Shown piece by piece: positions 25,621 to 58,324 of a stretch of DNA of 64,000 bases. The notes under the pieces are model-generated. The model saw only the letters and a program-made list of their open reading frames with translations, had not been told where the DNA came from and did no database searches. The stretch is from Acidobacteriota bacterium (GTDB lineage Bacteria > Acidobacteriota > UBA6911 > RPQK01 > JAJDTT01), in assembly GCA_965263035.1 (NCBI GenBank), contig OZ253580.1, positions 1,920,001-1,984,000 of the forward strand, written 5' to 3'. Made by a program: the position numbers and the translations under genes. Numbering within the stretch: the first letter of the stretch is position 1; every line of letters begins with the position of its first letter.

Positions 25621-26002
25621 AGACCACAGAGGGACATAAGGAGAAGGGGACAGTTACTTTCTCTACGAGTTTGTGGGGACTCCACCCAGGGAGCGGACTC
25701 GGAGCCGGCGCCCGAGCGAGTACAATTTCAACAGCGGATGAGATTCAAAGCGATCCTCAAACGCAGATGTCCACGATGTTTGCGTGGGCAGGTTTTCGCC
25801 TCGGCATTTCGTATGAGGCGGAACTGCGGTGTCTGCGACCTGAGATTCGAACGTCACGAACCAGGGTACTTTGTGGGTGCACTCTACTTCGCCTACGGAT
25901 TGGCGGTGCTGTTGGGCACTCCTCCTGCTGCCTATCTCTGGTGGCAGGGATTTTCGATAGAGGTTAACGCGCTTGTGATCACGGGAGAACTGATTATTTT
26001 AT

Positions 26003-26140
26003 GGGGCTTATATACCTAAGTGCCATTGGCATACAGTTCTGGCACCACGCTTTCCCCAACGAGATACGTTCCGGTGCCCAGGGCAAGAACCCCAGCCCTG
26101 AGAATGTTCAGGGCGGCATTGTGGTCCCTGTCCATTCCAA
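26003..26140 (-). ncRNA. Putative TnpB omega-RNA scaffold overlapping the tnpB 3' end (boundaries approximate)
   Basis: A near-identical nucleotide block is shared with 57160-57216, and a stem (26041-46/26073-78) co-varies between the two copies. Its position matches known TnpB guide-RNA loci. Confidence 0.55.
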
Positions 26141-27191
26141 GTCCGCAGGCCCTGCACCGGAAGGTTTCGCTCCGTCCTGGATCGTGGCGGGCGCCGCACC
26201 GGTGGCAGTCCTGCGATGTATATGCGGGATTCACTTCTACGAACTTCCGACCGGCCCATTCTGCCTTGTACTGGAGTTGATTCCGCAGAAGCCCCCATGA
26301 TTGCGTCATTATTTCTCGATTCAGCCCCTTCTTCTTCGAGCCCTTCGTCACCATCCCTTGGATGTTCAGTTTCTCCACAGCGATCAGACCGTGCTCACGA
26401 ATGATCCTGGTGGAGAGACGATGGCAGGCATTACGGTTTCGGACCGATTCCCGGTGACGGAGCCGAGATAGCTGTACGATCCGTTTCCGTCTGGTCTTGG
26501 AAATCTTCTTGCACCTGGAGACCTTTCTCTGCTGCTTTCGGATCTCCCCCCAGTCCCGTCGATTCCGTTCGATCCTCTCACCCGTGGACAGCACCGCTCG
26601 CTTGCGGACTCCCAGGTCGATCCCCACCGAAGACTCGCATTTCGGTAGCGGCGGCTTCTCCACCTCGTAGGTCAGGTCCACATACACCCGGTTCGGCTTG
26701 CGGACAATCCGCAACGCTTTCAACGGGCATCCGTCCGGCAACGGCCGGGAGGGAAATATCCGGATCGTCGGAAAGCCCTTGGGCCGGATGGCGTAGCCCC
26801 GAGCGCGCTTCTTCACCAGGGTCGCTTTGGGGTCGACGACGTCGATGGTCTCCATCCTCGCAATGGGCCGGAATCGAGGATACCCCGGCTTCTCCCCCGC
26901 CTTGCAGCGACGGAAGAACGCCTTGAAGGCCCGGTCCAACCGAACCAGCATCCCCCGCTCCGCCTTGACCGCCACTGACCCGAGCCCCTCCGGATCCTCC
27001 TTCCTTTTGGAGGTCAACCCCTTCATCTGATCGTACAGGGTCACGCCGCGTTGCTCGGATTCCCAGGCCGTCCTGTGTTCCTCCAGTGCAGCGTTGTACA
27101 GCCGATTCAGGATGGACCTCACCCCGTCCAACCGCCGGATTCCACCCTTGGACAGCTTGGCTCTGCACTGGATAGTTGCGTGGCCTTTCAT
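26016..27191 (-). CDS. tnpB: RNA-guided endonuclease TnpB
   Basis: RLYNAAL, KPGYPRF, RuvC motifs GIDLG / IAVEKL / DRDHNAALNI, YTSQDC and zinc finger CHRC..CRAC. Confidence 0.95.
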   Translation of the reverse strand: MKGHATIQCRAKLSKGGIRRLDGVRSILNRLYNAALEEHRTAWESEQRGVTLYDQMKGLTSKRKEDPEGLGSVAVKAERGMLVRLDRAFKAFFRRCKAGEKPGYPRFRPIARMETIDVVDPKATLVKKRARGYAIRPKGFPTIRIFPSRPLPDGCPLKALRIVRKPNRVYVDLTYEVEKPPLPKCESSVGIDLGVRKRAVLSTGERIERNRRDWGEIRKQQRKVSRCKKISKTRRKRIVQLSRLRHRESVRNRNACHRLSTRIIREHGLIAVEKLNIQGMVTKGSKKKGLNREIMTQSWGLLRNQLQYKAEWAGRKFVEVNPAYTSQDCHRCGARHDPGRSETFRCRACGLGMDRDHNAALNILRAGVLALGTGTYLVGESVVPELYANGT

Positions 27192-27484
27192 GGTAGGAAT
27201 TGTAAACCATCAGCCTGAATTCTCGGCACTTAGGCATATAATCCCCTATTTTATCTCCCTGGATCTTTCAGTACTCTCGAATCCTGTTCCTGCACTTGGA
27301 CCAGCTATTCGATCCCACCTAACTCGGGTGCGCTACTCAAGCTGCCCTACCAAGCTAGCCACGTCGCGGTAGCCCACAGACTCCCATCCACACGGGAGAA
27401 GGGGACAGTTACCTTCTCTACTTGGTGCAGATTGGTGCAGATTTGGTTTTAAAGGCAGCTTGGAGTCATGGCACGTTGTTTCAA

Positions 27485-57081: not shown

Positions 57082-58324
57082 GGGGCTTATATATCTGACT
57101 TGACGTCAGCACACCGTTCCGGCGCCACGTTCGGCCCGCTGGCCCACGTTTCGGCACCCAGGGCAAGAACCCCCGCCCTGAGAATGTTCAGGGCGGCATT
57201 GTGGTCCCTGTCCATTCTGAGATCACAGGCTGAGCAGTGATACGTCTCGCTCCTTCCCGGTCGATTCCGGGCGCCACAACGGTGACAGTCCTGCGATGTG
57301 TATTGTGGGTTGACTTCCACGAACCCCCGACCGGCCCACTCTGCCTTGTACTGGAGTTGATTCCGCAGCAGCCCCCATTGCTGTGAGAGCATCTCTCGAT
57401 TCAGGCCCTTCCGCTTCAGGCCCTTCGTCGACATCCCCTTGATGTCCAACTTCTCCACCGCAATCAGTCCGTTCTTGCGGATGATCGCAGTGGTCTGCCG
57501 GTGACAGGCGTTCCGGTTGCGGACACCCTCCCGGTAACGCATTCCCGCCAACCGGCGGACTCTCTTCTTCCTCCGGTTGGACCCCCGCCGGCATCGGGCA
57601 ATCCTCCTCTGTTGCCGCCGGATCTCCGGCCAGTCCCGAGTGTTGCGTTCGATTCGTTCCCCGGTGGACAAAACCGCCCGCTTGCGGACACCCAAGTCGA
57701 TTCCGACCGCCGAGGCACACTTCGGCAGCGGCTGCTTCTCGACTTCATAGGTCAGATCCACATACACCCGATTCGCCTTGCGCACGATCCTCAATGCTTT
57801 CAGTTCACCCTCGGGCAAGGGTCGGGTGGGGAACATCCGAATCGTCGGAAAGCCCTTGGGACGGATGGCGAATCCCCGGGCCCGCTTCTTCACCATCGTC
57901 GTCTTGGGATCGACGATATCAATGGTCTCCATCCTGGAGATCGGTCGGAACCGGGGATACCCAGGATCCTCTCCCGCCTTGCAGCGCCGGAAAAAGGCCT
58001 GGAAGGCTCGTTCCAGGCGAAACAACATCCCCCTTTCGGCCTTGACGGCAATGGCCCCGAGCCCGGTCGGATCGTTTCTCCTCTGCTGCGTCAAACCCCG
58101 CAACTGGTCATACAGAGTCACGGATTTCTCTTCCTTCTCCCAGGCGTCCTTTCGCTCCTCCAGGGCGGAGTTGTAGAGGCGGTTCAAAACCGATCGGATC
58201 CAATCCAGACGCCGAAGCCCAGCCTTGGACATCTTGGCTCGGCACTGAAATATTGTATGATACGTCAATACAGGTATGTTAACACATCTTAGTGACAATC
58301 TATCAAGTTAGATATTTAAGCCCC
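57082..58324 (-). mobile_element. TIR-bounded, TnpB-only element, copy 2 (1243 bp)
   Basis: TIRs GGGGCTTATATATCTGACTTGA and GGGGCTTAAATATCTAACTTGA (20/22). No clean 8-bp TSD. Confidence 0.88.
57087..58298 (-). CDS. tnpB: RNA-guided endonuclease TnpB (start uncertain, possibly TTG 58268)
   Basis: GIDLG / IAVEKL / DRDHNAALNI and CHRC..CSAC; close paralogue of 26016..27191. Confidence 0.95.
   Translation of the reverse strand: MSLRCVNIPVLTYHTIFQCRAKMSKAGLRRLDWIRSVLNRLYNSALEERKDAWEKEEKSVTLYDQLRGLTQQRRNDPTGLGAIAVKAERGMLFRLERAFQAFFRRCKAGEDPGYPRFRPISRMETIDIVDPKTTMVKKRARGFAIRPKGFPTIRMFPTRPLPEGELKALRIVRKANRVYVDLTYEVEKQPLPKCASAVGIDLGVRKRAVLSTGERIERNTRDWPEIRRQQRRIARCRRGSNRRKKRVRRLAGMRYREGVRNRNACHRQTTAIIRKNGLIAVEKLDIKGMSTKGLKRKGLNREMLSQQWGLLRNQLQYKAEWAGRGFVEVNPQYTSQDCHRCGARNRPGRSETYHCSACDLRMDRDHNAALNILRAGVLALGAETWASGPNVAPERCADVKSDI

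What the first reader, a model, noticed from the sequence alone, without database searches (positions are those of the whole stretch)
25995..27254. TnpB carried between terminal inverted repeats with an 8-bp TSD: an RNA-guided nuclease on a DDE-type non-autonomous transposon
Seen: the 1244-bp element encodes only TnpB with intact RuvC D/E/D residues. It has 22-bp TIRs (20/22) starting GGGG(C/A)TTATAT and a perfect TATTTTAT duplication. Excising it restores an in-frame DUF983 gene, which fixes the boundaries. Established: IS200/IS605 (Y1 HUH) and IS607 (serine) elements, the usual TnpB carriers, have no TIRs and make no TSD, whereas GG-initiated TIRs with ~8-bp AT-rich TSDs are typical of IS1595-family (e.g. 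IS1016-group) DDE elements. Inference: TnpB has been recruited by a cut-and-paste DDE element mobilised in trans, where it could cut empty donor sites to favour retention. I cannot tell from here whether this pairing is already published.
Basis: partly seen in the sequence, partly recalled or inferred. Interest (0 to 1): 0.92.

Follow-up and report, generated by a model that had tools for sequence, protein, structure and literature searches.

The report
TnpB riding in IS1595-type transposon shell
A guide-RNA nuclease gene (tnpB) sits alone inside a small mobile element whose ends and 8-bp insertion scars match a cut-and-paste IS1595 transposon family found in the same genome, an unusual partner for TnpB.

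Summary
Window 26003-27246 is a 1244-bp element that encodes only TnpB (391 aa, with the RuvC residues D/E/D and the zinc finger intact). It has 22-bp terminal inverted repeats (TIRs, 20/22) and a perfect 8-bp target-site duplication (TSD). It interrupts a DUF983-like gene. An orthologous empty site in a same-genus genome, and contigs in two public runs, carry exactly one TATTTTAT.

In this genome the same GGGG(A/C)TTATAT termini with 8-bp TSDs flank 12 IS1595-family transposase genes. A second TnpB copy differs at 2 of 1244 nt and has a different TSD. Seven TnpB subfamilies that have diverged to about 75% identity, all within this Acidobacteriota genus, sit in such shells. None has a transposase inside.

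TnpB is under purifying selection (dN/dS 0.11-0.23). Its 3' end plus the right TIR shows a conserved RNA fold with 11 compensatory pairs, a likely omegaRNA.

New here: 17 of 18 insertions carry G|A (consensus roughly ARGGG|AWA) directly upstream of the TSD on the TnpB 5' side only. Autonomous IS1595 copies show this at 7 of 36 ends. It looks like a transposon-adjacent motif (TAM), the short sequence TnpB needs next to its target.

TnpB associated with DDE transposases, and solo TnpBs moved in trans, were published in 2023. An IS1595 partner is not named in any text I could read. I rate it a new variant of a known kind.

The parts
25738..26002 (+). 5' part of the interrupted DUF983-like gene (ATG at 25738). 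Its last 8 bases are the left TSD copy.
   Evidence: The Pfam DUF983 match is 20.6 bits, below the 22.6 cut-off.
25995..26002 (.). Left copy of the 8-bp target-site duplication TATTTTAT.
   Evidence: The empty allele in G006 and in runs X13 and X4 carries one copy.
25983..26002 (-). Predicted template of the omegaRNA guide. It is the flank that follows the element's right end in TnpB orientation, and it starts with the TSD (ATAAAATA...).
   Evidence: Inference from TnpB biology. RNA-library contigs run from the tnpB 3' part across this end into the flanks of other copies, which is only a weak hint.
26003..26024 (+). Terminal inverted repeat at the TnpB 3' end (right end of the element). It overlaps the last 3 codons and the stop codon of tnpB.
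26003..26148 (-). Candidate omegaRNA scaffold: a conserved structured region formed by the last ~146 nt of the element (tnpB 3' end plus right TIR).
   Evidence: 30 pairs, 11 with compensatory changes, 97.2% of cells paired, 0 of 500 shuffles as high; dS is roughly halved in the last ~94 codons. No Rfam family matches.
26016..27191 (-). tnpB, 391 aa, with intact D192/E273/D356 and zinc finger.
   Evidence: dN/dS between subfamilies is 0.11-0.23.
27225..27246 (-). Terminal inverted repeat at the TnpB 5' end (left end of the element).
   Evidence: It matches the TIR of the co-resident 1762-bp IS1595 element at 19 of 22 positions; the G007 copies match at 21 of 22.
27247..27254 (.). Right copy of the TSD TATTTTAT.
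27255..27259 (-). TAM-like position: GGGAG in TnpB orientation, directly 5' of the TSD. It is this copy's instance of the orientation-specific ARGGG|AWA motif.
   Evidence: Position -1 is G in 17 of 18 insertions and TSD position 1 is A in 18 of 18.
27255..27321 (+). 3' part of the interrupted DUF983-like gene (stop codon TAA at 27319-27321).

Best explanation
The element is a non-autonomous cut-and-paste transposon. It has an IS1595-family (ISNwi1-like) TIR shell that makes 8-bp TSDs, and its only cargo is tnpB together with the RNA encoded by the tnpB 3' end.

Shown:
- The boundaries, TIRs and TSD.
- Recent transposition.
- The same termini and TSD length around IS1595 transposase genes in the same genome.
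- A whole diverged TnpB clade living in such shells.
- Purifying selection on TnpB.
- A conserved RNA fold that reaches the right TIR.

Inferred:
- Co-resident IS1595 transposases move the element in trans.
- The omegaRNA scaffold ends at the right TIR and reads on into the flank, so the guide begins with the TSD.
- TnpB cuts the unoccupied or precisely rejoined site, X-TSD-Y. It recognises a purine-rich TAM (about ARGGG) at the 3' end of X. The occupied site has ...AAGCCCC in that position and is spared. The cut forces repair from a filled copy and so favours retention of the element.
For: TIRs and TSD.

Genome-wide picture: 14 of 14 TIR pairs in G000 have perfect 8-bp TSDs that differ between copies. 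Twelve carry an ORF; the four ORF types (one representative of each scanned) are IS1595-family transposases by Pfam and NCBIfam.

Recent mobility: a second TnpB copy at genome 1310799-1312042 differs at 2 of 1244 nt and has the TSD ATATTCAT. Same-genus G007 has at least 10 copies at 94-98% identity, each with its own TSD.

Possible partners: the A-family TIR matches the 1762-bp IS1595 TIR at 19-21 of 22 positions. TIRs of other subfamilies resemble other IS1595 lineages of the genus.

Empty site. A 1245-nt contig in run X1 spans exactly 26002-27246.

Clade: support 100/100.

Selection and RNA: dN/dS is 0.11-0.23, and dS in the last ~94 codons is lower, from about 0.4 to 0.76 of that in the first 300 codons, in 6 of 7 subfamily pairs. 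The RNA fold has 11 of 30 pairs with compensatory changes, 0 of 500 shuffles reach the observed values, and slid controls give at most 2 such pairs.

Flank motif: G|A occurs at the TnpB 5' side in 17 of 18 insertions, against 7 of 36 ends of autonomous IS1595 copies (Fisher p 1e-7).

No rival transposase: all 9 OrfB_IS605 matches in G000 belong to this clade. The only Y1_Tnp matches are two weak hits (39 and 36 bits) elsewhere in the genome; the one I inspected (L208) is split into two ORFs.
Against: - No element with both a transposase and tnpB was found. There is no IS1595 transposase within 4 kb of any TnpB relative in loci L045-L104.
- No autonomous copy in G000 has TIRs identical to the TnpB element's.
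- The transposase and TnpB do not always occur together. G002 has 12 transposase matches but no TnpB. G005 has 6 TnpB matches (5 near full length) but only one partial transposase match with a stop codon.
- No RNA ends, strand or cleavage activity were observed. The public runs were available only as contigs.
- The flank motif is weak at positions -3 and -4. Its GGG|A core also resembles the element's own terminus GGGGA, so it could reflect target choice rather than a TAM.
- Three TIR pairs without a matching TSD were left out of the count, and only 1 of those 3 has G|A.
- The terminal hairpin energies are mostly no better than shuffled sequence.
- The RNA structure was derived from the same alignment on which it was scored.
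Confidence: 0.78

Rival explanations
1. The TIR shell and trans-mobilisation are real, but TnpB is inert or otherwise-occupied cargo, for example a regulator. In this reading the ARGGG|AWA motif is the target preference of the transposase that moves these elements, not a TAM.
For: The GGG|A core of the motif resembles the element terminus GGGGA. Several transposases are known to target sequences resembling their own inverted repeats; this is recalled, not tested. DSB repair after cut-and-paste excision may make a homing nuclease redundant, an argument made in the review PMC13565253. Many copies are degraded.
Against: The motif tracks the TnpB orientation in subfamilies whose two TIRs are nearly identical. 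The 18 autonomous IS1595 insertions examined show G|A at only 7 of 36 ends, with no orientation rule. The catalytic residues are invariant and dN/dS is 0.11-0.23. The conserved RNA fold at the 3' end is what a working omegaRNA predicts.
Confidence: 0.17
2. It is an ordinary IS200/IS605 tnpB-only (IS1341-type) element moved by a Y1 TnpA. The 'TSD' would then be a repeated TAM or cleavage site, and the 'TIRs' would be chance or hairpin remnants.
For: The TnpB scores 166.8 bits against the NCBIfam IS200_TnpB model, below that model's 425-bit cut-off. Two Y1_Tnp matches exist in G000.
Against: The 8-bp repeats differ between copies; 16 perfect TSDs were read, of which 15 are different, so they are not a fixed TAM. 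The empty site holds exactly one copy. The termini are shared with IS1595 transposase-bearing elements. The Y1 matches are weak (39 and 36 bits) and are not next to any tnpB; the one I inspected (L208) is split into two ORFs. IS200/IS605 elements have no TIRs and make no TSDs (PMC13565253, passages read).
Confidence: 0.02
3. TnpB itself, or some unrecognised host factor, moves the element, and the resemblance to IS1595 ends is convergent.
For: No transposase lies inside any copy. G005 keeps 6 TnpB matches (5 near full length) with only a partial IS1595 transposase match.
Against: The first 11 terminal bases are identical to those of the IS1595 elements, up to 21 of 22 TIR positions match, and the TSD length of 8 bp is the same. 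No transposition chemistry is known for TnpB; this is recalled.
Confidence: 0.03

Closest known systems
DDE-transposase-associated TnpB branches (DDE-1 to DDE-6) and solo TnpBs with the same ends (Altae-Tran et al., PNAS 2023, PMC10691335; section 9 and passages read)
   Same: A prokaryotic TnpB lies between inverted terminal repeats. The TnpB 3' end is close to the transposon end (13 bp here, within 250 bp there). Solo TnpBs are inferred to be moved in trans.
   Different: The partner family here is IS1595. The main text there names only IS630, and a 2026 review (PMC13565253) lists ISL2, IS630 and IS1031. Here no copy contains a transposase, the TSD is a long, variable 8-mer, and a TAM-like motif sits upstream of the TSD. 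I could not test whether this clade falls inside one of the six branches, because the supplements were closed.
Non-autonomous Fanzor1-only TIR/TSD transposon of Spodoptera frugiperda ascovirus (Yoon et al., NAR 2023, PMC10711439; section 27 read)
   Same: The element encodes only the RNA-guided nuclease, has clear TIRs and TSDs, and is present in few copies. [quoted passage not shown]
   Different: That element is eukaryotic or viral, its transposase family is unknown, and its TSD is assimilated into the scaffold. Here the 8-bp TSD varies between copies, so it is more likely the start of the guide.
IS1341-group (tnpB-only) IS200/IS605 elements
   Same: tnpB is the only gene, and mobilisation in trans is presumed.
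   Different: Those elements have no TIRs and no TSDs, carry subterminal hairpins and insert next to a fixed TAM (PMC13565253). None of these features holds here.
IS1595 family, ISNwi1-like group, including forms with passenger genes
   Same: The termini are GGGGATTAT... and the TSD is 8 bp. An 8-bp TSD for the IS1016 group and the IS1595 family is stated in PMC10045372. The end consensus 'ggnnatTAT' for ISNwi1 and the 'passenger gene' subgroups are recalled from ISfinder and its reviews; I did not see them in any call.
   Different: This element has lost, or never had, the transposase gene. Its cargo is a TnpB with its RNA.

Membership tests
TnpB (RNA-guided nuclease, OMEGA system) | Match to the TnpB profile HMMs above their cut-offs | tested here: met
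   PF01385 66.5 bits (cut-off 30.5) and PF07282 91.3 bits (cut-off 26.3). NF040570 217.5 bits (cut-off 100). ISDra2 TnpB structures match at E 2e-32.
TnpB (RNA-guided nuclease, OMEGA system) | Intact RuvC D-E-D residues and CxxC...CxxC zinc finger | tested here: met
   D192, E273, D356, C329, C332 and C349 are invariant in 8 relatives. Assigning them as catalytic or zinc-binding residues is recalled.
TnpB (RNA-guided nuclease, OMEGA system) | omegaRNA encoded at the tnpB 3' end and transposon right end, with the guide read from the flank | tested here: inconclusive
   A conserved fold with 11 compensatory pairs and reduced dS at the 3' end support it. RNA-library contigs cross the right end, but contigs show neither ends nor strand. 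No Rfam family matches.
TnpB (RNA-guided nuclease, OMEGA system) | RNA-guided, TAM-dependent DNA cleavage | not testable with these tools
   The only evidence is an indirect TAM-like flank motif.
IS1595-family transposon (non-autonomous derivative) | TIRs shared with elements that encode a DDE_Tnp_IS1595 transposase | tested here: met
   The terminal 11 bases are shared, and 19-21 of 22 positions match the 1762-bp element's TIR.
IS1595-family transposon (non-autonomous derivative) | 8-bp target-site duplication of variable sequence | tested here: met
   14 of 14 TIR pairs, and 13 of 18 TnpB elements. Two more match at 7 of 8 positions by eye, and three more were found by hand. The family's TSD length is stated in PMC10045372.
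IS1595-family transposon (non-autonomous derivative) | Encodes its own IS1595 transposase | tested here: not met
   tnpB is the only gene inside the element, and there is no transposase within 4 kb of relatives. It is therefore filed as non-autonomous, not as an IS1595 insertion sequence proper.
IS1595-family transposon (non-autonomous derivative) | Mobilised by an IS1595 transposase | not testable with these tools
   Co-residence with the 1762-bp element in G000 and G007 is only circumstantial.
IS200/IS605 (IS1341 group) | No TIRs, no TSD, subterminal hairpins, insertion 3' of a fixed TAM | tested here: not met
   TIRs and variable 8-bp TSDs are present. The family's features are taken from PMC13565253.
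DDE-associated TnpB branches of Altae-Tran 2023 | Inverted terminal repeats, with the TnpB 3' end within 250 bp of the transposon end | tested here: met
   the stop codon lies 13 bp from the element's end.
DDE-associated TnpB branches of Altae-Tran 2023 | Phylogenetic placement inside one of branches DDE-1 to DDE-6 | not testable with these tools
   The branch sequences are in supplements, which were closed. In my own tree the sister lineages (L067; L118 and L122) are also TIR-bounded solo TnpBs with different TIRs.

The most novel reading that the evidence does not exclude
In these elements the TnpB guide starts with the 8-bp TSD itself, and the TAM (about ARGGG) lies in host DNA just upstream of the TSD. 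TnpB-driven cutting of vacant sites then decides which DDE-made insertions persist. That would explain why 17 of 18 surviving insertions carry the motif on the TnpB 5' side only. If true, this would be a bacterial case in which an RNA-guided nuclease has adapted its homing logic to a cut-and-paste transposon that makes TSDs, and has left a readable TAM footprint in the insertion-site spectrum.
Probability: 0.35. Interest if true: 0.75.

Novelty: new variant of a known kind. Interest (0 to 1): 0.58.

Why it matters
TnpB's accepted role is to rescue scarlessly excised IS605 and IS607 elements. Whether and how it helps cut-and-paste DDE transposons is an open question, which the 2026 review discusses. 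This genus offers a compact natural system in which to test it:
- a 1244-bp element;
- candidate partner transposases in the same genome;
- several diverged subfamilies with matching changes in TIR and RNA;
- empty alleles;
- a predicted TAM.

It also adds IS1595 to the DDE families seen carrying TnpB, and it provides small TnpB/omegaRNA pairs with a possibly G-rich TAM.

Tried and rejected
Rfam scan of 25900-27400. Three chance-level matches, best E 0.88. No known RNA family.

Promoter and terminator scan. Nothing above the shuffled expectation.

Metagenome scan with alignment A1. The peptide patterns were generic, so it returned only distant TnpBs (26-48% identity). No close relatives and no element with both genes turned up. 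Of the 28 loci I scanned for TIRs (27 of the 80 returned, plus L067), only L067 and L118 gave convincing TIRs. L122-L124 have the same motif at the same positions.

Phylum sample. No relatives at E <= 1e-50 outside genus g1 in the 401 genomes searched. This is a sample, so it does not show absence.

Orthologous insertion in G007. I first thought L018 might be the same insertion because it has the same TSD. Its flanks differ, so it is independent.

Public runs. All four were contigs, so they show no RNA ends, strand or expression level. The lack of X13 cover over 26859-27224, and the depth ratio of 955 to 145 in X1, are not used as evidence of expression or copy number.

Terminal hairpin. It is present in the minimum-free-energy fold of 11 of 13 ends, but the energies are mostly within about 1 sd of shuffled sequence. 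Only the between-subfamily co-variation, judged by eye, argues for it.

Literature searches on IS1595 with TnpB. No paper links the two, judging by listings and the passages I read. Supplements of PMC10691335 could hold such a case, but they were closed. The FEMS review of IS families was not held, so the ISNwi1 end consensus is recalled.

Rows dropped from the flank count (n=18). Three TIR pairs without a matching TSD were left out: L008, L021 and L031. Of these, 1 of 3 has G|A at the 5' side, and 3 of 3 have an A after the right end. Copies with decayed or missing ends were also left out (for example L010, L019, L022, L024, L029).
Full report
What is there

Window 26003-27246 is a 1244-bp element. 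It starts with GGGGCTTATATACCTAAGTGCC and ends with the inverted GGGGATTATATGCCTAAGTGCC, a 20 of 22 match. TATTTTAT lies directly outside both ends, at 25995-26002 and 27247-27254. The TIR pattern occurs twice in the window and never in 100 shuffles.

The only ORF with a family match is 26016-27191 on the minus strand, 391 aa. It matches OrfB_IS605 and Cas12f1-like_TNB and NCBIfam guided_TnpB (217 bits). Its best natural structural relative is ISDra2 TnpB, at E 2e-32. D192, E273, D356 and three zinc-finger cysteines are invariant among eight relatives. The stop codon lies 13 bp from the element's end, inside the TIR.

The host gene and the empty site

The element splits a small gene that starts at 25738. 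Removing the element plus one TSD copy gives a 110-codon frame. Orthologues in same-genus genomes G001, G002, G003 and G006 are 110 aa. In G006 the DNA reads ...GAACTGATTATTTTATCTCCCTGG..., exactly the predicted empty site.

In public runs, one contig each in X13 and X4 joins 25994 to 27247, skipping 1252 bases with 8 letters shared. In X1 a 1245-nt contig spans exactly 26002-27246. The DUF983 label is weak: 20.9 bits against a cut-off of 22.6.

The ends belong to an IS1595 family resident in this genome

A scan of the whole 6.2-Mb genome found 30 TIR-like sites, which form 14 pairs. All 14 pairs have perfect 8-bp direct repeats, and the repeats differ between copies.
- Twelve pairs enclose a 314-334-aa ORF. 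The four ORF types match DDE_Tnp_IS1595 (E 1e-35 to 1e-39), the IS1595 zinc ribbon (one above Pfam's cut-off, three just below), and NCBIfam transpos_IS1595.
- Two pairs enclose only tnpB: the window copy, and a copy at genome 1310799-1312042. The second copy differs at 2 of 1244 nt and has the TSD ATATTCAT.

The 8-bp repeats are therefore true target duplications, not a fixed TAM, and the element has moved recently. Its TIRs match those of the eight-copy 1762-bp IS1595 element at 19 of 22 positions. In G007 the left TIR matches at 21 of 22.

A whole TnpB clade lives this way

G000 has 14 TnpB-like matches. All 9 OrfB_IS605 matches in the genome are among them.

Relatives at E <= 1e-20 occur in 5 of 8 other genomes of the genus and in 0 of 32 genomes outside it. 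At E <= 1e-50 they occur in 2 of 401 Acidobacteriota genomes sampled, counting G000. The taxon name comes from the record titles of relatives.

Seven subfamilies, at 75-87% protein identity to the window copy, all carry GGGG(A/C)TTATA-type TIRs whose inner part differs by subfamily. Of 18 distinct TIR pairs, 13 have perfect 8-bp TSDs and two more match at 7 of 8 positions. Three further elements with TSDs were found by hand.

No IS1595 transposase lies within 4 kb of any TnpB relative in loci L045-L104.

In a tree of 35 TnpBs the genus clade is monophyletic (100/100). Its sister (L067, a SAR202 MAG, 45% identity) and the next lineage out (L118 and L122) are also solo TnpBs between inverted repeats, but with different repeats. 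Of the 22 rows outside that clade, I scanned 18 for TIRs and none gave a convincing one; four (L071, L078, L081, L087) were not scanned.

Transposases of this kind occur in 7 of the 8 other genomes of the genus. They do not track TnpB strictly: G002 has 12 transposase matches and no TnpB, and G005 has 6 TnpB matches (5 near full length) and only a partial transposase match.

Is TnpB working?

Between subfamilies dN/dS is 0.11-0.23. In 6 of 7 comparisons dS in the last ~94 codons is lower, from about 0.4 to 0.76 of that in the first 300 codons.

The last 160 nt of 13 elements were aligned. They give an RNAalifold structure of 30 pairs, 11 of them with compensatory changes. In total 97.2% of cells pair, no shuffle out of 500 reaches any of the observed measures, and slid controls give at most 2 compensatory pairs. 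One caveat: the structure was derived from the same alignment on which it was scored.

Next to it, a terminal hairpin pairs the conserved CUGUA with the UAUA of the right TIR, and its sequence changes with the subfamily's TIR. It appears in 11 of 13 minimum-free-energy folds, with weak energies.

This is what an omegaRNA scaffold ending at the right TIR would look like, and it parallels Fanzor1 elements, in which the TIR is part of the scaffold (PMC10711439, section 27). No Rfam family matches. RNA-library contigs in X13 and X17 run from the tnpB 3' part across the right end into the flanks of other copies, but contigs cannot show strand or ends.

A TAM-like footprint

I oriented 18 independent insertions by TnpB and tabulated their flanks:
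- The base just 5' of the left TSD copy is G in 17 of 18.
- TSD position 1 is A in 18 of 18.
- TSD position 2 is A or T in 18 of 18.
- TSD position 3 is A in 14 of 18.
- Position -2 is G in 12 of 18.
- Position -5 is A in 13 of 18.
- The 3' side shows no signal.

Eighteen autonomous IS1595 insertions have G|A at 7 of 36 ends, with no orientation rule (Fisher p 1e-7). Three extra right-end flanks seen in public runs also start with A-W-A.

The motif sits exactly where a TAM should sit if the guide is the right-end flank (TSD plus what follows) and the target is the vacant site. The occupied site has ...AAGCCCC in that position. The competing reading is a target preference for sequences resembling the element's own GGGGA terminus. 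The three TIR pairs without a TSD that I left out show G|A in 1 of 3.

Rivals

An IS605-type reading fails. The TSDs vary, TIRs are present, and the only Y1_Tnp matches are two weak hits elsewhere in the genome, the one I inspected (L208) being split into two ORFs. 'Inert cargo' is not excluded, but it fits poorly with the purifying selection and the conserved RNA fold.

What is known

IS200/IS605 and IS607 elements lack TIRs and TSDs (PMC13565253).

Altae-Tran et al. 2023 (PMC10691335; section 9 read) describe six DDE-associated TnpB branches with inverted terminal repeats, and solo TnpBs with the same ends that are inferred to move in trans. Only IS630 is named in the text, and 'IS1595' occurs 0 times. 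The 2026 review lists ISL2, IS630 and IS1031 as partners, and argues that DDE partners are rare because excision already leaves a break.

Six searches that combined TnpB with IS1595-family names or with TIR/TSD/DDE terms found nothing on this pairing. The supplements were closed.

Verdict

The general kind is published. The new points are the IS1595 partner, the exclusively solo life style across a diverged clade, the co-varying TIR and RNA, and the TAM-like motif upstream of a variable 8-bp TSD. I rate it a new variant of a known kind, of moderate to good interest.

Noticed in passing
window 57082-58324 (tnpB 57108-58259, minus strand): A second TnpB element lies in the same window. It belongs to the B subfamily (75% protein identity) and has TIRs GGGGCTTATATATCTGACTTGA / GGGGCTTAAATATCTAACTTGA (20 of 22). 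Its flanking 8-mers do not match (AGCTACCT versus TACCACAC), perhaps after recombination between copies.
   Followed up: partly
genome 1740263-1742024 and 7 other copies (L002:1001-2762): The 1762-bp IS1595 element carries about 700 bp beyond its transposase gene. ORFs of 233 aa and 127 aa lie there on opposite strands, and neither has a Pfam match. This could be a passenger gene or a non-coding part. The copy at 976200-979730 is itself interrupted by an IS with a DDE_Tnp_1_4 transposase.
   Followed up: partly
window ~25640-25665 and ~27395-27420: The motif GGGGACAGTTAC(T/C)TTCTCTAC is repeated on both sides of the DUF983-like gene. In run X1 a contig differs by a 10-nt insertion at 27421. 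It may be a REP-like intergenic repeat.
   Followed up: no
genome 3477718, 1666522, 6007268, 3980453, 1964912; L208:1144-1830: GGGGGTTAAAAACCCCCGCTCCCA(T/G)C occurs at least five times. One copy lies ~400 bp upstream of a Y1_Tnp-like gene that is split into ORFs of 94 and 127 aa and carries an HVH motif. This suggests a REP/RAYT-type system unrelated to the TnpB elements.
   Followed up: partly
L067:3881-5262 (SAR202 MAG) and L118:3377-4676, L122-L124 (metagenome contigs): The sister lineages of the clade are also solo TnpBs between inverted repeats of other types: GAGACGATTTCACAAAT with a 7-bp direct repeat TGTGTAT, and GTCTCAGTTTGAAATC. The wider TnpB lineage may be specialised for riding in TIR shells and may swap shells.
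   Followed up: partly
L038/L019 versus the window copy: A versus D subfamily: dS is 0.34 in the first 300 codons but 0.85 in the last ~94 codons, the reverse of the other pairs. The D-type TIR also resembles a different IS1595 lineage (L199, about 18 of 23 positions). This suggests modular exchange of the 3' RNA/TIR module.
   Followed up: no
runs X17 and X18: RNA-library runs labelled 'sponge metagenome' hold 45-46% of the element's sampled words. In all, 20 runs from 9 studies hold the element or part of it.
   Followed up: partly
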